A stretch of 64,000 nt of DNA, taken from positions 36,610-100,609 of the forward strand of contig DATEZQ010000008.1 of the NCBI GenBank assembly GCA_035583355.1, given 5' to 3'. This stretch comes from Minisyncoccota bacterium. Lineage in GTDB: Bacteria; Patescibacteriota; Minisyncoccia; Phycocordibacterales; UBA6899. Numbering within the stretch: the stretch's first letter is position 1; each line of letters begins with the position of its first letter. Shown piece by piece: positions 19,757-36,487 of this stretch. Under the pieces are notes generated by a model, which saw only the letters and a list, made by a program, of their open reading frames with translations, was not told where the DNA came from and did not search any database. The position numbers were made by a program, and so were the translations under genes.

Positions 19757-20170
19757 ATGGAATCCAAAAATGAACTGATACCTTGGAAGAGAACTCTTGA
19801 TGGGCTCTATCACGCAACATTCCCAAAGCACATCTCCGTGGGAAATTTGGTGACCATGTGGGCGGAGATATTCAATGACTACTCGGAGCACTTTGCGGGA
19901 GCTGGCCCCCTACTTATCATCGTTGATGGGTCAAAGGTTGAACGCTATGAAGAGCAAGCAATATCAATATCAAACTTGCATGTCATTCCAGGGAATACAG
20001 AAGCACTGGTTGCAGTGCATAGCAGATCGCCTGCATACATACAACTCTCAAACAGTTTTTTTCGCACTCACCCACTACCTTCGAACGTGCGCTACTTCGA
20101 CAACGAACAATCTGCGCGCAATTGGCTAGAGCAGACTCTCGATAAATACAACAAAAGTTTTCATGTATAA
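19757..20170 (+). CDS. Hypothetical protein (137 aa), possibly an alpha/beta fold
   Basis: Clean ORF ending at a bidirectional terminator shared with the convergent gene. No family recognised. Confidence 0.45.
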   Translation: MESKNELIPWKRTLDGLYHATFPKHISVGNLVTMWAEIFNDYSEHFAGAGPLLIIVDGSKVERYEEQAISISNLHVIPGNTEALVAVHSRSPAYIQLSNSFFRTHPLPSNVRYFDNEQSARNWLEQTLDKYNKSFHV

Positions 20171-20192: not shown

Positions 20193-20627
20193 TTACACAC
20201 GTGTCGATGCGAAGTAGTACTCTGGAGTCCACAGTGTACTCACAGGAAAAAGTCGAAGCGCAGGTTTCTCTTCCCAGGAAGTGAGACCAAACACATGCCG
20301 CGAAGGCCCAAGGTCAATCAACGAACCAAGTGCAATGACGGGAAGGAGTAACTGCACATCTGTGTGCTGTTCTCCAAATTCCAATAATTCGATCGCTTCA
20401 AGGGGTCTACGTAAACGTGCATGCATTGACCAGAGTATGCCATCCGAACTCGACAATTCCTTCGTTCCAAAAAGATCAACAGGGATGGTCTTGGTACCCG
20501 TCTCCTTTGTACGGATTTGACGTAAAACAATATCCGAAATGAAATTTATGTATGCATCATCGCGCAATATTTTCTCTATATCCCTATCGTAATCGACGAT
20601 GACGGGATATGTTGCCCGAATAGACAT
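20193..20627 (-). CDS. Hypothetical protein (144 aa)
   Basis: Clean ORF. Its stop codon lies inside the bidirectional hairpin aaaagccccacaagacggggctttt at 20169-20195. No family recognised. Confidence 0.45.
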   Translation of the reverse strand: MSIRATYPVIVDYDRDIEKILRDDAYINFISDIVLRQIRTKETGTKTIPVDLFGTKELSSSDGILWSMHARLRRPLEAIELLEFGEQHTDVQLLLPVIALGSLIDLGPSRHVFGLTSWEEKPALRLFPVSTLWTPEYYFASTRV

Positions 20628-20716
20628 GGGAACCTCCCCTCATCACTTCTCTTCGAATTGTATCACAACAAACTTTGTATTAAAAAACATGAAGCGAGGC
20701 TTCATGTTTTTTAATA

Positions 20717-21490
20717 CTACTTAGCGATATCCTGAAGAACACATACTCCATGCCCCTCTGGCTTTACATCGCGATAAATTCGTTCAATGAGTCCATCAGG
20801 CCCGACGACGAATGTTGTACGCTTGTTGAACAAGCCACCCCAGACACCGCAAGCTTTTGCAAAGGCATGACCCTCGTCAACGAGTAGCGGATAAGTAATC
20901 CCTTCCTTCGCGATGAAATGTTCATGACTTTCCAGAGAATCAGGAGACACTCCAAAGACGCGCACGTTTTGAATACCAAACTCTCCGGCGAGCTTTGAAA
21001 ACTCATGAGCCTCTGTTGTGCATCCCGATGTTTCATCCTTCGGGTAAAAATACATGACATAGCGTGAGCCAAGCAAATCGGCATTGGTAGTAGTGCCCCC
21101 TTCGGTCGAAAGCAAAGCGAATGAAGGAAATACACTCCCCACGTCGAGTACGCCCGGCGTGAGTGGCTGTGCACTCGCGACAGATTCAGACATATGTTTT
21201 ATTTCTTCTTTGATAAGCGCGTTTGCAATCGTCGATTTCGCCTTCACGGTCTTCACTTTCTTAGGCGCAACTTTTTTCGCAGTGACCTTCTTCGCAACTG
21301 AAGCCTTTACAACTTTCGCCTTCTTGGCTGCGACTTTCTTTGCTGTGACTTTTTTCACTGCGGCAACCTTCTTCTTCGGAGCGGCCTTCTTCGCAGTAAT
21401 ATGTTTCGATGTGACACGCTCAACAACCAGTCGTGTAGGTGGCTGCTTTTTCTTTTCAACGTGTCGTGTGATAGTGAGTTTGATTGCCAT
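20717..21490 (-). CDS. bcp: Bcp-type peroxiredoxin (thiol peroxidase) with a ~100-aa N-terminal histone-H1-like Lys/Ala-rich extension
   Basis: C-terminal Prx motif YFYPKDETSGCTTEAHEF plus the rest of an AhpC/TSA fold. N-terminal AKKAAPKKKVAAVKKVTAKKVAAKKAKVVKASVAKKVTAKKVAPKKVKTVKAKS in the same frame with no stops. Confidence 0.8.
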   Translation of the reverse strand: MAIKLTITRHVEKKKQPPTRLVVERVTSKHITAKKAAPKKKVAAVKKVTAKKVAAKKAKVVKASVAKKVTAKKVAPKKVKTVKAKSTIANALIKEEIKHMSESVASAQPLTPGVLDVGSVFPSFALLSTEGGTTTNADLLGSRYVMYFYPKDETSGCTTEAHEFSKLAGEFGIQNVRVFGVSPDSLESHEHFIAKEGITYPLLVDEGHAFAKACGVWGGLFNKRTTFVVGPDGLIERIYRDVKPEGHGVCVLQDIAK

Positions 21491-21580
21491 AGAGATAAAT
21501 GTTTATCATTAAGCTGCTCGTAGTATATCACGAAGACACTCTGTCTGCAGTATTTTATAGTATCAAAAGCAAAAACCGCC

Positions 21581-22564
21581 TTATGAGGCGGTTTTTGATG
21601 AACGGAGTTTTGCAATAAGCATGTCGCGAAATGCCTTTATGGAGACATCATCGATGACCGAAATTGCATAGATTTCATGGCCGAGCTTCGCAAGTTTCTT
21701 CTTTGCAGCTTCGACAGTCTTCTCATCAACGAGATCGGTCTTTGTAAGCAAGATGATCTCTTCCTTCTCAGGAAGACCATTACCGAAACTTTCAAGCTCC
21801 TTACGCATCGTATTGTATGCGGCAAGCACATCCTCATTCTCAAGTGAGATGAGATGGAGCAACATCTTTGTGCGTGAGACATGGCGAAGGAATTTGATAC
21901 CAAGACCCTTACCCGTCGCAGCACCTTCGATGAGTCCAGGAATATCCGCGAGGACATAACCATAGAATGCACCAAGGTTTGGCTCGAGCGTCGTAAATTG
22001 ATAGGCACCGATCTTTGCAGTCGCATTCGTCAGCTCATTCAAGAGTGATGACTTTCCTGCGTTTGGAAAACCAAGGAAGCCAACATCGACGACGAGGCGC
22101 AATTCGAGATGGACATCAGACTGCTCTCCAGGCTTGCCTGGAGTAGCACGATCTGGAGAGCGATTTGTTGAGCTCTTGAAGCGCTCATTACCAAGTCCAC
22201 CACGACCACCCTCAAGAAGGAGAATCGGTTCGTCCTCAGTAAGGACATCAAAAACCTTACCTGAATCAAGAAGCGTAACGACAGTTCCAACAGGAACTAC
22301 GAGCGTGAAATCTTTTCCATTGCGACCAAAGAGTGAATCACTTCCTCCGTCAACGCCACGCTCTGCATCAAATTCCTTCTGGTGACGATATTTGTAGAGT
22401 AGACCAAGGTCGCGTGATCCCATCACGTACACATTTCCTCCATTACCACCATCTCCGCCTGCAGGACCAGCATACTCCTTCCCCTTATCGTGACGCCAAC
22501 GGACAACACCGTTTCCACCGTCACCCGCCGCCATATGTATTGTCAGTTCATCTACGAAAGCCAT
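21581..22564 (-). CDS. obg: GTPase Obg
   Basis: The Obg fold N-terminus MAFVDELTIHMAAGDGGNG…GGDGGNGGNVYV, followed by the G-domain GFPNAGKSSLLN. Confidence 0.95.
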   Translation of the reverse strand: MAFVDELTIHMAAGDGGNGVVRWRHDKGKEYAGPAGGDGGNGGNVYVMGSRDLGLLYKYRHQKEFDAERGVDGGSDSLFGRNGKDFTLVVPVGTVVTLLDSGKVFDVLTEDEPILLLEGGRGGLGNERFKSSTNRSPDRATPGKPGEQSDVHLELRLVVDVGFLGFPNAGKSSLLNELTNATAKIGAYQFTTLEPNLGAFYGYVLADIPGLIEGAATGKGLGIKFLRHVSRTKMLLHLISLENEDVLAAYNTMRKELESFGNGLPEKEEIILLTKTDLVDEKTVEAAKKKLAKLGHEIYAISVIDDVSIKAFRDMLIAKLRSSKTAS

Positions 22565-23738: not shown

Positions 23739-24251
23739 ATGGAATTCACATTACTTCTTGGAACCGCGCGTCCCGGTAGGCAATCAGAGCGCGTCGCACG
23801 ATTCATAGAGAAAACACTTATAAATAACAGCCATCAAGTTGATTTTGTCGATGTCAAAGACTATCTCGATATCACAACAAAAATGGGCGGGGTACCTCTT
23901 TCCGATAGCATTGGGAGCAAGTGGAGAGAAATCGTCGCACAAAAGAAAACTCTACTTATTGTTTCTCCTGAATACAACCACAGCTTCCCCGGGGAACTTA
24001 AGCGACTTATTGATGCGGCCTATCCCGAGTACAAAGGCAAGCATGTCGGTATTATCGGTGTCTCAATGGGCCCCTTTGGCGGCGCGCGCATGATAGAACA
24101 GCTCCAACTTGTGCTTATTGCCTGCGGGGCACTACTCCCCCGTGCAGGGATGATATTTCCTTTTGTCCAAGAATTGTTTAATGATGACGGGAGTATCAAA
24201 GACCCTGCATATACCGACCGAGTGCTTGCATTTATAAAGACCCTCGAATAA
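23739..24251 (+). CDS. NADPH-dependent FMN reductase-like flavoprotein
   Basis: Flavodoxin-like fold with …LLIVSPEYNHSFPGELKRLID… as in the NADPH-dependent FMN reductase family. Confidence 0.7.
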   Translation: MEFTLLLGTARPGRQSERVARFIEKTLINNSHQVDFVDVKDYLDITTKMGGVPLSDSIGSKWREIVAQKKTLLIVSPEYNHSFPGELKRLIDAAYPEYKGKHVGIIGVSMGPFGGARMIEQLQLVLIACGALLPRAGMIFPFVQELFNDDGSIKDPAYTDRVLAFIKTLE

Positions 24252-24651: not shown

Positions 24652-25536
24652 TCACTCCGCGAGAGTGATGTTATTTTTATGCTTCGCTAATATCCCCTCT
24701 TCAAGAAGTTCATCGATTGCCGCCTTCCCGTCATATGGAGTATCCGCGAAGAATGCTTCTGCAGCTTTTCTTGAAAGTGTTCCTTCTGCAACAAGTGCCT
24801 TAAGGAGCGCTCCTCGATAGGAGCGTTTCGAACCTTTGAATTTTGATTGTGGCTTCTTGTAGACGAAATCATCGACATCACCATGAAAATCGAACATAGG
24901 GCATGCATCACTATGACGCCTTGCTGTACATACCATCGCACCAAGATCGAGCATCGCATAATTCCATGCGCGTCCGCGACCCGTAGGAATCATCGCCTGT
25001 GCAAAATCAAAGAGCACTGCGTCGCTCGGAATATCGCCATCAAAGAATGAGCGTACAAGTATACGACGTAGATTCGTATCAATCATTGGGTAAGGCTCGT
25101 TCCAGGCGAATGCCATGATGGCAGCTGCCGTTGAGCGACCGATGCCAGGCAATGACTGCAACTTCGTAAAGTCACGAGGGAATTTTCCATCATGCTCACT
25201 AACTACTGCTTTCGCAGCTTGGTGCAAGTATTTCGCGCGGCGATTATATCCAAGACCGGACCAAAGACGAAGCACATCTCTTAGTGGTGCTCGCGCAAGC
25301 ATACTCACATCAGGAAAACGCAGAATGAATTCTGCAAACTTCGTGCGCACGCGATCCACCTGCGTCTGCTGCAACATAATCTCGGAAACAAGAATCCGGT
25401 AGGGATCGAGCATCACCTTCGTATCACGCTTCTTTGGCCTCCAATCCATCGGACGATATACGTTATTGTTCCACGCAAAGAGTATTTCATTGAATTCTTG
25501 GACACGCTTATTCACCTCCACAGCATAATCGTTCAT
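24652..25536 (-). CDS. HhH-GPD DNA glycosylase, MutY/Nth-like
   Basis: LDPYRILVSEIMLQQTQV plus the helix-hairpin-helix LPGIGRSTAAAIMAFAW and the catalytic-Asp region. C-terminal extension present. Confidence 0.75.
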   Translation of the reverse strand: MNDYAVEVNKRVQEFNEILFAWNNNVYRPMDWRPKKRDTKVMLDPYRILVSEIMLQQTQVDRVRTKFAEFILRFPDVSMLARAPLRDVLRLWSGLGYNRRAKYLHQAAKAVVSEHDGKFPRDFTKLQSLPGIGRSTAAAIMAFAWNEPYPMIDTNLRRILVRSFFDGDIPSDAVLFDFAQAMIPTGRGRAWNYAMLDLGAMVCTARRHSDACPMFDFHGDVDDFVYKKPQSKFKGSKRSYRGALLKALVAEGTLSRKAAEAFFADTPYDGKAAIDELLEEGILAKHKNNITLAE

Positions 25537-25605
25537 CCGCTGGAACGCAAATAGAAAAACACACACGATAAATCGTGTGTGTTTTCAGTATGTTTCTTCA
25601 CCTTT

Positions 25606-35294: not shown

Positions 35295-36487
35295 CGGTAG
35301 TGCTCAGCCTTACTTGGAAGCCCCTCAACGAGTACAAAGAGGAGTGCCGCAGTAAGTGCAAGCACGGCACCATAGAAAAATGTTGTCTCTGGTCCCCAAT
35401 GCGTCCAAAGCAGTCCTCCAACAAGCGATGCGATAAATGCAGCGATACCGGTCAACATATAATAAAATCCATATGCGGTTCCGAGTTTTTCGGTTGGAAC
35501 GATATTTGCGATGTATGACTTTGACACTCCATCAGTAAGCGCCATATAGAATCCATATACAGGAAAGAGTATCCAGATATGTAGTGGCGATTGTATCAGT
35601 GCAAAGCCCGCGTACACAACAGCGAATATAACAAGTCCGAGCACATACACTTTCTTCTCACCAAGCTTGTCCGAAATAATTCCCGCTGGGAGCGAGAATG
35701 CAGAGTAGGTGATGTTATAGAGTACATATGCAAGCACCGTCACGATAAGCGAAAAGCCAAGCCCCTTCGCACGCAAGATCAAGAACGCATCAGAGCTATT
35801 TCCAATAGCAAAAATTGTTGAGATCACTACGAAGAAGAGAAACTTTCGAGGCAGAGCACTTATGCGGAACTTTTCTGCACTGGGCGCAATTACGGATCGC
35901 TGTTTTTCCTTTATGTACACTACAAGAAGTATGAGTGCAATAGAAGTTGGAATAAGCGCAAGGAAAAACATCAGGCGATAGTTATCCTGATAGAAGTGCA
36001 ACAACAGTATCGCCAGCAGCGGCCCAAGAATTGCTCCAAGCGTATCAGTCCCGCGGTGAAAGCCAAAGGCACGACCGAGCATCTTTGGCTCGACGTTTTC
36101 TGCAATGAGTGCATCACGCGCACTCGTGCGTATCCCCTTCCCAAGTCTACTAGTGAATTTCCCCGCAAGGACCAGGTGCCAAGTGTTTGCTATTCCATAG
36201 AACAGATTTGCAATCGTACCGAGCCCATACCCAACAACTACGAAAATCTTGCGCTTTCCGGTCATATCGGAAAGTCTTCCAGAAAATCCTTTTAACAAAC
36301 TTGCCGTACCCTCAGCAATGCCTTCGATGAGGCCTACAATAGAAGCAGGAGCACCGAGTACAGAAGTGAGGAATATCGGAACGATTGGATAAAGCATTTC
36401 CGAAGCAACATCATTGAAGAAGCTTACTACAGAGAGCACAAAAACGGGCGTAGTGACACCATATTTCCTTTCCAAATATTCACGCAT
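35291..36487 (-). CDS. MFS transporter
   Basis: Twelve predicted TM helices. The MFS motif region …GRLSDMTGKRKIFVVVGYGLG… between TM2 and TM3. Confidence 0.85.
   Translation of the reverse strand: MREYLERKYGVTTPVFVLSVVSFFNDVASEMLYPIVPIFLTSVLGAPASIVGLIEGIAEGTASLLKGFSGRLSDMTGKRKIFVVVGYGLGTIANLFYGIANTWHLVLAGKFTSRLGKGIRTSARDALIAENVEPKMLGRAFGFHRGTDTLGAILGPLLAILLLHFYQDNYRLMFFLALIPTSIALILLVVYIKEKQRSVIAPSAEKFRISALPRKFLFFVVISTIFAIGNSSDAFLILRAKGLGFSLIVTVLAYVLYNITYSAFSLPAGIISDKLGEKKVYVLGLVIFAVVYAGFALIQSPLHIWILFPVYGFYMALTDGVSKSYIANIVPTEKLGTAYGFYYMLTGIAAFIASLVGGLLWTHWGPETTFFYGAVLALTAALLFVLVEGLPSKAEHYR

What the first reader, a model, noticed from the sequence alone, without database searches (positions are those of the whole stretch)
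20717..21490. Histone-H1-like Lys/Ala-rich domain fused to a Bcp peroxiredoxin
The Bcp-type thiol peroxidase (motif YFYPKDETSGCT) is preceded in frame by ~100 codons. These encode AKKAAPKKKVAAVKKVTAKKVAAKKAKVVKASVAKKVTAKKVAPKKVKTVKAKS, a histone H1 / Hc1 / AlgP-like KAAK repeat region. The stretch has no stop codon, and its antisense frame gives only a low-complexity artefact. A peroxidase tethered to a DNA-binding basic tail could be a nucleoid-localised antioxidant. I do not know this fusion from characterised proteins.
Basis: partly seen in the sequence, partly recalled or inferred. Interest (0 to 1): 0.6.

Follow-up and report, generated by a model that had tools for sequence, protein, structure and literature searches.

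The report
Peroxiredoxin with a lysine-rich disordered tail
A groundwater Paceibacteria bacterium encodes a peroxide-removing enzyme (Bcp/PrxQ) with a genuinely translated, strongly positively charged, floppy 116-residue N-terminal tail, which probably holds the enzyme on DNA or another polyanion. Such tails turn out to be common on bacterial Bcp enzymes, and a chromatin-bound counterpart has been characterised in the malaria parasite.

Summary
Window 20717..21490 (-) is one uninterrupted 257-aa ORF.

- **aa 1-29:** a conserved motif, MAIKLTITRHVEKKKxPPTxLVVERV.
- **aa 30-86:** a Lys/Ala/Val pentapeptide-like stretch with 22 K, no acidic residues and net charge +22.
- **aa 87-102:** a short helix.
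- **aa 117-257:** a high-confidence AhpC/TSA (Bcp/PrxQ) domain with the PxxxTxxC motif and the conserved Arg.

The tail is translated. Six syntenic orthologues from independent metagenomes keep it in frame. dN/dS is 0.04-0.11 for aa 1-29 and about 0.09 for the K-rich part. A conserved extended -10 element lies upstream of the first ATG, and the internal Met is missing in more distant orthologues.

The fusion is not unique. Of the 147 closest Prx-domain representatives, 46 have N-terminal basic tails and 11 have C-terminal ones. These include genomes of planctomycetes and Bdellovibrionota.

"Histone H1-like" holds for composition only, because the HC2 and H1-like models score below their cut-offs.

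A characterised analogue exists: Plasmodium PfnPrx, a PrxQ with a Lys-rich tail that is chromatin-bound. I found no bacterial study.

Polyanion or nucleoid tethering is inferred, not shown. It is a new variant of a known kind, of moderate interest.

The parts
20717..21490 (-). Complete CDS (257 aa plus stop): Bcp/PrxQ peroxiredoxin with a 116-aa basic N-terminal extension
   Evidence: ORF list. An identical protein is annotated 'peroxiredoxin [Candidatus Paceibacterota bacterium]' in NCBI.
21404..21490 (-). aa 1-29, conserved N-terminal motif MAIKLTITRHVEKKKQPPTRLVVERVTSK
   Evidence: Conserved in 10 orthologues; full-length identity to the query ranges from 89% down to 42% for P0023. dN/dS is 0.04-0.11. 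AF2 predicts no structure, pLDDT 48-59. Found only in these Bcp genes within the window and 508 kb of loci.
21233..21403 (-). aa 30-86, Lys/Ala/Val-rich low-complexity region (approximate AKKVx pentapeptides), net charge +22
   Evidence: Composition. 15-bp tandem period at 21321-21352. Length varies but indels are in frame in orthologues, and dN/dS is about 0.09 for the two closest pairs. pLDDT 31-56.
21143..21232 (-). aa 87-116, linker with a predicted helix (aa 87-102, TIANALIKEEIKHMSE). It contains the internal Met100 (codon 21191-21193).
   Evidence: AF2 helix 89-102 and 87-99. Conserved in the six closest orthologues and absent in P0007 and P0023.
20720..21142 (-). aa 117-257, AhpC/TSA thioredoxin-fold peroxidase domain (Bcp/PrxQ type)
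   Evidence: Pfam PF00578 E = 2e-32. pLDDT above 95. Closest solved structure is Xanthomonas campestris Bcp, 5iox/3gkk, E = 3e-24.
21020..21022 (-). Cys157 codon, the peroxidatic Cys in P150-x3-T154-x2-C157
   Evidence: Invariant in 73 of 73 aligned homologues, as are P150 and R224; T154 is T in 72 and S in one.
20741..20743 (-). Cys250 codon, a clade-specific invariant Cys in the C-terminal helix and a candidate resolving Cys
   Evidence: All 27 sequences with Cys at this column lack the usual Cys at CP+5, which is His162 here.
21522..21530 (-). Extended -10 promoter element TGATATACT, ending 31 nt before the ATG
   Evidence: TATACT is at this position in all 7 orthologous loci, preceded by TGn in 6 of them; L084 reads TGTTATACT. 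Similar TGnTAtAcT elements precede many genes of the window.
21570..21597 (-). Intrinsic terminator of the upstream obg gene
   Evidence: 12-bp stem plus T run. Conserved in orthologues.
20677..20717 (-). Terminator-like hairpin directly after the stop codon
   Evidence: 19-pair stem. With the upstream terminator it makes the gene monocistronic.

Best explanation
The gene encodes an active thiol peroxidase of the Bcp/PrxQ subfamily. Its N-terminal 116 residues are a translated, intrinsically disordered polycation with net charge +26.

**Proposed mechanism (inferred).** The acidic catalytic domain is tethered by the Lys-rich tail through non-specific electrostatic binding to a cellular polyanion. 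Chromosomal DNA is the most likely partner, with RNA/ribosomes or polyphosphate as alternatives. Peroxide would then be reduced next to the nucleic acid, before Fenton chemistry can damage it. This is functionally analogous to Dps with its Lys-rich N-terminus, and to the chromatin-bound Plasmodium PrxQ (PfnPrx).

The strongly conserved 29-aa N-terminal motif and the helix at aa 87-102 suggest an additional specific contact in this Paceibacteria clade. Its partner is unknown.

Catalysis would use Cys157 as the peroxidatic Cys. The usual resolving Cys at +5 is His, so the enzyme is either 1-Cys or uses the clade-invariant Cys250.

**Shown:** ORF integrity, translation of the tail (from evolutionary evidence), disorder, charge, the catalytic motifs, and recurrence of such tails across Bcp lineages.

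**Inferred:** binding to DNA or another polyanion, localisation, enzymatic activity and the reductant.
For: - **ORF and domain.**
- **The tail is coding.** Six syntenic orthologues (obg-bcp-...-gatB) from independent metagenomes keep it. dN/dS is 0.04-0.11 for aa 1-29 and about 0.09 for aa 30-86. All indels are in frame, and the extended -10 element lies upstream of the first ATG in all seven.
- **Missing Shine-Dalgarno is normal here.** Only 7 of 40 long ORFs have an SD-like motif.
- **Disorder.** pLDDT is 31-59 for aa 1-112 and above 90 for the Prx domain in two AF2 runs.
- **Charge.**
- **Recurrence.** With the Prx domain alone as query, 46 of 147 nearest representatives have N-terminal basic tails and 11 have C-terminal ones. 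Parsimony gives at least 21 state changes on an NJ tree.
- **Other phyla.** Tails occur in planctomycete and Bdellovibrionota genomes.
- **Specificity.** In 508 kb of fetched loci, 10 of the 11 strongly K-rich ORFs are the Bcp itself. In the window it is the only one.
- **Precedents.** PfnPrx is a PrxQ with a Lys-rich tail, nuclear and chromatin-associated (PMC3064226; PMC6155587). Streptomyces DdbA is an H1-like DNA-binding domain fused to a DksA-like domain (PMC3643593 abstract).
Against: - No experiment or direct computation here shows DNA binding or localisation.
- Lys/Ala-rich proteins can act on other polyanions. AlgP affects polyphosphate granules (PMC9239181 title and abstract).
- The H1/Hc2 family models are not met.
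- Neighbouring genes are housekeeping and give no functional link.
- The 50%-identity clustering of the representative library probably inflates the share of tailed forms, because fast-evolving tails split clusters. In a sample of 80 species genomes only 3 clear cases were seen (L001, L011, L071), with shorter basic stretches in L045 and L049.
- The NJ tree of a roughly 147-aa domain is weak, so the number of independent gains is uncertain. N- versus C-terminal placement shows at least two.
Confidence: 0.6

Rival explanations
1. The tail targets the enzyme to a polyanion other than DNA, such as ribosomes/rRNA, mRNA or polyphosphate granules. It would then protect RNA or translation, or sit at polyP, rather than guard the chromosome.
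For: The composition is equally suited to RNA or polyP. The H1-like protein AlgP acts on polyphosphate granule spacing (PMC9239181). Lys-rich IDRs of snoRNPs act on RNA and the nucleolus (PMC11528048 abstract). Cells of this group are very small, so nucleoid and ribosomes are hardly separated (general knowledge).
Against: Nothing here discriminates between these partners. The only characterised Prx with such a tail is chromatin-bound. No polyP or ribosome genes are linked to the locus.
Confidence: 0.2
2. The tail is a selectively near-neutral low-complexity expansion, or a solubility or 'entropic bristle' appendage, with no targeting role. The enzyme works as an ordinary cytoplasmic Bcp.
For: The K-rich segment varies in length and sequence between orthologues and has a short 15-bp tandem repeat suggestive of slippage. 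Most Bcp enzymes work without a tail.
Against: Charge and composition are retained, with zero acidic residues, across orthologues whose full-length identity falls to 42%. dN/dS is about 0.09 where measurable, and the flanking N-motif is under strong constraint at 0.04-0.11. Tails recur on Bcp in several phyla and at either terminus. Such K-rich stretches are otherwise rare in the same DNA.
Confidence: 0.1
3. The upstream part is not translated, or only partly. The real product starts at Met100 (MSESV...), and the K-rich frame is a 5' leader that happens to be open.
For: There is no Shine-Dalgarno motif before ATG 21490. Lys codons leave several frames open.
Against: dN/dS is well below 1 in aa 1-29 and aa 30-86, and indels are in frame only. 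Met100 is absent from P0007, P0008 and P0023. The conserved -10 element lies upstream of the first ATG, with in-frame stops just before it. SD-less starts are the rule in this genome, 33 of 40 ORFs. A minor short isoform cannot be excluded.
Confidence: 0.03
4. The tail anchors the enzyme to the anionic inner face of the membrane, or controls oligomerisation or a chaperone switch of the peroxiredoxin.
For: Polybasic stretches bind acidic phospholipids. Lys-rich repeats target proteins to the erythrocyte periphery in Plasmodium (PMC5207086 abstract). A conserved helix and N-motif could mediate protein contacts.
Against: There is no hydrophobic or amphipathic membrane segment and no lipidation signal (sequence). 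AF2 does not dock the tail on the domain. PrxQ enzymes are mostly monomers or simple dimers (PMC6155587).
Confidence: 0.07

Closest known systems
Plasmodium falciparum nuclear peroxiredoxin PfnPrx (PrxQ/MCP1)
   Same: PrxQ-subfamily AhpC/TSA domain joined to a long Lys-rich, H1-like tail. It is experimentally an active peroxidase that is nuclear and associated with chromatin genome-wide. Its authors proposed direct tail-DNA binding (PMC3064226; PMC6155587).
   Different: The tail is C-terminal and preceded by a Glu-rich region, and the host is a eukaryote. Here the tail is N-terminal, carries a conserved 29-aa leader motif, and belongs to a Patescibacteria bacterium. Tail homology is not demonstrable. 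Direct DNA binding by the PfnPrx tail was itself never shown.
Bacterial Bcp/PrxQ (E. coli Bcp; Xanthomonas campestris PrxQ, PDB 3gkk/5iox)
   Same: Same catalytic domain, PxxxTxxC motif and conserved Arg. It is the best sequence match among solved structures (E = 3e-24).
   Different: Those enzymes are about 155-160 aa with no tail. Their resolving Cys sits at CP+5 (E. coli type) or in helix 3 (Xc Cys84). Both positions are non-Cys here, His162 and Ile193.
Dps (DNA-binding protein from starved cells)
   Same: An antioxidant protein held on the nucleoid through a Lys-rich, flexible N-terminus. This matches the proposed logic of scavenging next to DNA (abstracts of PMC12642551 and PMC8199988).
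   Different: Unrelated fold (ferritin-like dodecamer) and chemistry (ferroxidase). Its tail is short.
Bacterial histone H1-like Lys/Ala-rich proteins and fusions (Chlamydia Hc1/Hc2, Pseudomonas AlgP, Streptomyces DdbA and HupS)
   Same: Lys/Ala-rich pentapeptide-like repeats, disorder, and fusion to a functional domain in DdbA and HupS.
   Different: Similarity is compositional only. The HC2 and H1-like HMMs score below threshold. This tail is unusually Val-rich (11 of 57), and its partner domain is a peroxidase.

Membership tests
Peroxiredoxin, Bcp/PrxQ subfamily (Pfam PF00578 AhpC-TSA) | Thioredoxin-fold AhpC/TSA domain above the Pfam gathering score | tested here: met
   112.1 bits against a cut-off of 26, aa 117-237. 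AF2 pLDDT above 95 with the expected beta-alpha order.
Peroxiredoxin, Bcp/PrxQ subfamily (Pfam PF00578 AhpC-TSA) | Active-site PxxxT/SxxC motif plus the conserved Arg | tested here: met
   P150, T154, C157 and R224. P150, C157 and R224 are invariant in all 73 homologues; position 154 is T in 72 and S in one.
Peroxiredoxin, Bcp/PrxQ subfamily (Pfam PF00578 AhpC-TSA) | Closest relatives are Bcp/PrxQ rather than AhpC, Tpx or Prx5 | tested here: met
   The top PDB sequence hits are all 'bacterioferritin comigratory protein'. The best NCBIfam models are Bcp (PRK09437) and PrxQ.
Peroxiredoxin, Bcp/PrxQ subfamily (Pfam PF00578 AhpC-TSA) | NCBIfam equivalog score for Bcp (PRK09437) or PrxQ | tested here: not met
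   88.5 bits against 140, and 88.1 against 260. It is a divergent member, not an equivalog.
Peroxiredoxin, Bcp/PrxQ subfamily (Pfam PF00578 AhpC-TSA) | Canonical resolving Cys (CP+5, or helix 3 as in Xc Cys84). Typical of 2-Cys members, not obligatory for the subfamily. | tested here: not met
   His162 at CP+5 and Ile193 at the Xc Cys84 position. Clade-invariant Cys250 may substitute.
Peroxiredoxin, Bcp/PrxQ subfamily (Pfam PF00578 AhpC-TSA) | Thiol-dependent peroxidase activity | not testable with these tools
   Needs an enzyme assay.
Histone H1-like bacterial proteins (Hc2 PF07382; NCBIfam hist_H1_lk_Burk, histone_lik_HC2) | Score above the family cut-off | tested here: not met
   PF07382 scores 16.3 against 40. 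NF038053 scores 21.5 against 80 and NF038052 scores 12.6 against 135.
Histone H1-like bacterial proteins (Hc2 PF07382; NCBIfam hist_H1_lk_Burk, histone_lik_HC2) | Lys/Ala-rich, acid-free, repeat-like, disordered sequence | tested here: met
   39% K, 25% A and no D/E in aa 30-86. 15-bp period. pLDDT below 60.
Histone H1-like bacterial proteins (Hc2 PF07382; NCBIfam hist_H1_lk_Burk, histone_lik_HC2) | Non-specific DNA binding or nucleoid compaction | not testable with these tools
   Needs EMSA or microscopy.
Chromatin-tethered PrxQ (PfnPrx type) | PrxQ domain covalently joined to a long Lys-rich tail | tested here: met
   The tail is at the opposite terminus from PfnPrx.
Chromatin-tethered PrxQ (PfnPrx type) | Association with DNA or chromatin in the cell | not testable with these tools
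   Needs ChIP or localisation.
Chromatin-tethered PrxQ (PfnPrx type) | Common descent of the fusion with PfnPrx | not tested
   The PfnPrx sequence was not retrieved. N- versus C-terminal placement argues for independent origin.

The most novel reading that the evidence does not exclude
Bcp/PrxQ enzymes with polycationic tails form a widespread, repeatedly evolved and so far unstudied class of nucleoid-tethered bacterial peroxidases, an enzymatic counterpart of Dps. In the Paceibacteria clade the tail would be more than a charge carrier. Its strongly conserved 29-aa N-terminal motif would dock to a specific partner, and the catalytic domain would use a new resolving-Cys position (Cys250, C-terminal helix) that replaced the CP+5 Cys.
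Probability: 0.3. Interest if true: 0.6.

Novelty: new variant of a known kind. Interest (0 to 1): 0.4.

Why it matters
If the tail holds the peroxidase on DNA, the placement of peroxide defence, and not only its amount, would be under selection in bacteria. This includes ultra-small Patescibacteria, which in general have few antioxidant enzymes.

The recurrence of the architecture makes the idea testable in culturable relatives such as Bdellovibrio-like bacteria and planctomycetes. About a third of the nearest cluster representatives carry a tail, and tails occur at either terminus and in several phyla.

It also gives a bacterial parallel to the Plasmodium nuclear PrxQ. That protein's tail-DNA interaction was never demonstrated, because the protein could not be expressed.

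Practically, database annotation ("peroxiredoxin") hides the tail.

Tried and rejected
The profile of aa 1-47 gave 52 word-sharing candidates, none scoring. aa 1-116 alone gave 8000 K-rich candidates, none scoring. The orthologues themselves were not recovered, so these are technical failures (low-complexity bias), not evidence of absence. Locally, the motif occurs only in the Bcp genes.
- **Taxonomy of tailed homologues via cluster names.** No organism names were returned.
- **Genome-contig scan.** It is a sample, not a census.
- **Literature.** Four searches found no bacterial study of a Lys-rich-tailed Bcp. Subscription-only papers are not covered.
- **Second AF2 run.** An orthologue-only alignment was used to see whether the N-motif docks on the domain. 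It stays unstructured.
- **Operon logic.** Neighbours are obg, gatB, MYG1, two small hypotheticals, an FMN reductase and an HhH-GPD glycosylase. The gene has its own promoter and terminators, so there is no functional clue.
- **Rejected: sequencing frameshift artefact.** Seven independent assemblies carry the same frame.
- **Rejected: the antisense ORF 21084..21512 as a gene.** Selection acts on the sense frame.

Full report
**1. What is in the sequence**

On the minus strand, 20717..21490 is a single ATG-initiated ORF of 257 codons. In-frame stop codons lie five to seven codons upstream of the ATG, with no other start codon between them. Pfam places an AhpC/TSA domain at aa 117-237 (E = 2e-32) and a Redoxin match over the same stretch. 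The best NCBIfam models are Bcp (PRK09437) and PrxQ, both below their equivalog cut-offs.

The 116 residues in front of the domain have three parts:
- **aa 1-29:** MAIKLTITRHVEKKKQPPTRLVVERVTSK.
- **aa 30-86:** a Lys/Ala/Val-rich stretch with 22 K, 14 A, 11 V, no D/E and no R. Net charge is +22.
- **aa 87-116:** a mildly acidic linker containing the internal Met100.

The whole extension has net charge +26 and pI 10.8. The catalytic domain is acidic (pI 5.3). A 15-bp (five-codon) tandem period is detectable at 21321-21352. No other ORF in the 64-kb window has a comparable Lys density. The + strand ORF 21084..21512 is the Phe/Ala/Thr-rich mirror image of the Lys codons.

The extension is 116 aa, and it is not uniform.

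**2. Is the tail translated?**

The identical protein is in NCBI as "peroxiredoxin [Candidatus Paceibacterota bacterium]". Nine further proteins (42-89% full-length identity) carry the same N-terminal motif followed by a K-rich segment of variable length.

I fetched six of the genes from independent metagenome assemblies. All sit in the same neighbourhood: obg, then bcp, then one or two small hypothetical genes, then gatB. Where the fetched DNA reaches far enough upstream of obg, MYG1 is there too, directly adjacent in L082 and L084 and separated by two further ORFs in L081.

A codon alignment gives these Nei-Gojobori dN/dS values:

| Region | dN/dS |
|---|---|
| aa 1-29 | 0.04-0.11 |
| K-rich part, two closest pairs | about 0.09 |
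| Linker, five closer pairs | 0.07-0.30 |
| Linker, most distant pair (L082) | 0.64 |

Synonymous sites are saturated beyond the two closest pairs in the K-rich part. Every length difference is a multiple of three.

Upstream, all seven loci share the obg terminator hairpin and a TATACT -10 element that ends 31 nt before the ATG. It is preceded by TGn (extended -10) in six of the seven; L084 reads TGTTATACT. Met100 and its surroundings are missing in P0007, P0008 and P0023.

No Shine-Dalgarno motif precedes ATG 21490, but that is the norm here. Only 7 of 40 long ORFs have one, and many have a -10-like element immediately before the ATG.

Translation therefore starts at 21490. A minor internal isoform cannot be ruled out.

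**3. Structure**

Two AlphaFold2 runs were made, one with a 73-sequence alignment and one with a 10-orthologue alignment. Both give a confident Prx fold for aa 117-257 (pLDDT about 90-98). Both give a low-confidence, unstructured aa 1-112 (pLDDT 31-59), apart from a helix at about aa 87-102. The conserved N-motif is not docked onto the domain.

**4. Catalytic features**

P150-x3-T154-x2-C157 and R224 are conserved in all 73 aligned homologues, with a single Ser at position 154. The closest solved structures are Xanthomonas campestris Bcp/PrxQ (E = 3e-24).

Both known resolving-Cys positions of the subfamily are non-Cys here. CP+5 is His162, and the Xc Cys84 position is Ile193. Instead, Cys250 in the C-terminal helix is invariant in the clade. 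In the 73-sequence alignment, all 27 sequences that have Cys at this column lack the CP+5 Cys. This suggests a relocated resolving Cys, or a 1-Cys mechanism. That is inference.

**5. How common is the fusion?**

I searched 1.84 billion cluster representatives with the Prx domain alone, so that Lys-rich words could not bias the search. Of the 147 best hits with a recognisable motif, 46 have an N-terminal basic tail, 11 have a C-terminal basic tail and 90 have none.

On a neighbour-joining tree of the domains, tail state needs at least 21 changes, against about 46 when states are shuffled. Tails are therefore inherited within clades but were gained or lost repeatedly. N- versus C-terminal placement alone shows more than one origin.

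In a truncated sample of 80 species-representative genomes, clear Lys-rich N-tails occur in an uncultured planctomycete (L001), a Bdellovibrionota MAG (L011) and a Pseudobdellovibrio (L071). Most Bcp genes in that sample have none.

Within 508 kb of fetched loci, 10 of the 11 strongly Lys-rich ORFs are the Bcp genes themselves.

One caveat applies. Clustering at 50% identity over-represents fast-evolving tails, so "one third" is an upper estimate.

**6. Comparison with what is known**

The H1/Hc2 resemblance is compositional. The family models are not reached.

A characterised analogue exists. Plasmodium falciparum PfnPrx has an AhpC/TSA domain and a Lys-rich C-terminal tail. It is an active peroxidase, it is nuclear, and it is associated with chromatin genome-wide. 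Its authors proposed direct tail-DNA contact but could not express the tail to test it (PMC3064226). A review assigns it to the PrxQ subfamily (PMC6155587).

Other relevant precedents:
- Dps, an antioxidant with a Lys-rich DNA-binding N-terminus (abstracts).
- Streptomyces DdbA, an H1-like DNA-binding domain fused to a DksA-like domain (PMC3643593).
- AlgP, an H1-like protein acting on polyphosphate granules (PMC9239181). This keeps non-DNA polyanions in play.

Four literature searches found no study of a bacterial Lys-rich-tailed Bcp.

**7. Explanation**

The best-supported reading is a Bcp/PrxQ peroxidase tethered by a disordered polycationic tail to a cellular polyanion, most probably the nucleoid, so that peroxide is removed next to nucleic acid.

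What is shown is the translated tail, its disorder and charge, the catalytic motifs, and the recurrence of such tails. Binding, localisation and activity are inferred.

Rivals are listed with their tests. They are RNA/ribosome or polyP targeting, a near-neutral low-complexity expansion, an internal start, and membrane or oligomerisation roles. The internal-start and artefact readings are effectively excluded.

**8. Verdict**

The feature is a new, uncharacterised bacterial variant of a known kind, a PrxQ with a Lys-rich tail. It is widespread rather than unique.

Two details are worth follow-up: the constrained 29-aa N-motif and the Cys250/CP+5 swap. Interest is moderate (0.4).

**Dead ends**

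The searches for the N-motif in other proteins failed technically. Cluster look-ups gave no taxonomy. The genome scan was truncated.

Noticed in passing
window 20741-20743 (Cys250) and 21005-21007 (His162): In the 73-sequence alignment, all 27 Bcp homologues with Cys at position 250 (C-terminal helix, GHxxCV) lack the usual resolving Cys at CP+5. This suggests a relocated resolving cysteine that defines this subclade.
   Followed up: partly
window-wide, e.g. upstream of ATGs at 36487(-), 19668(-), 54049(+), 30478(-), 18146(-), 16136(-): Only 7 of 40 long ORFs have a Shine-Dalgarno-like motif. Many have a TGnTAtAcT/TATAAT -10-like element 7-12 nt before the ATG, suggesting frequent leaderless or very short-leader mRNAs in this Paceibacteria genome.
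   Followed up: no
window 21491-21569 (minus strand), and the same region in L081-L086: The obg-bcp intergenic region is unusually conserved. TTGATACTATA(A/G)AATA follows the terminator. AGCTTAATGAT lies between the -10 element and the start, and in several orthologues it forms a 2-3-codon mini-ORF (ATG-xxx-TAA). It could be an operator or a translational element.
   Followed up: no
L051 3613-3927 (+), Phycisphaeraceae MAG: A 104-aa ORF lies 140 nt downstream of a Bcp that has no Lys-rich tail, only a short Ala/Pro-rich leader. It begins with a Lys-rich tail (MAKKKSTKKKTTKKKAASKK...) followed by a small conserved-looking domain. It could be a separately encoded basic partner or a coincidence.
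   Followed up: partly
window 19757-20170 (+) and 20193-20627 (-): Two small genes lie between bcp and gatB. The 137-aa gene is conserved in all orthologous loci whose fetched DNA extends past bcp (L081-L085), on the opposite strand, and gives only a weak DUF7793 hit. The 144-aa gene has no Pfam hit and is present in only some orthologous loci.
   Followed up: no
P0141 (152 aa): One database protein joins a GatB-like N-terminus (MAYTTTIGLEVHAELKT...) to the C-terminal part of this Prx domain. It is probably a mis-assembly or a deletion between the neighbouring gatB and bcp genes.
   Followed up: no
window 23739-24251 (+) and 24652-25566 (-): An NADPH-dependent FMN reductase and an HhH-GPD base-excision glycosylase lie 2-4 kb from the peroxiredoxin, and also in L082. 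They are redox and DNA-repair genes in the neighbourhood but are not co-transcribed with it.
   Followed up: no
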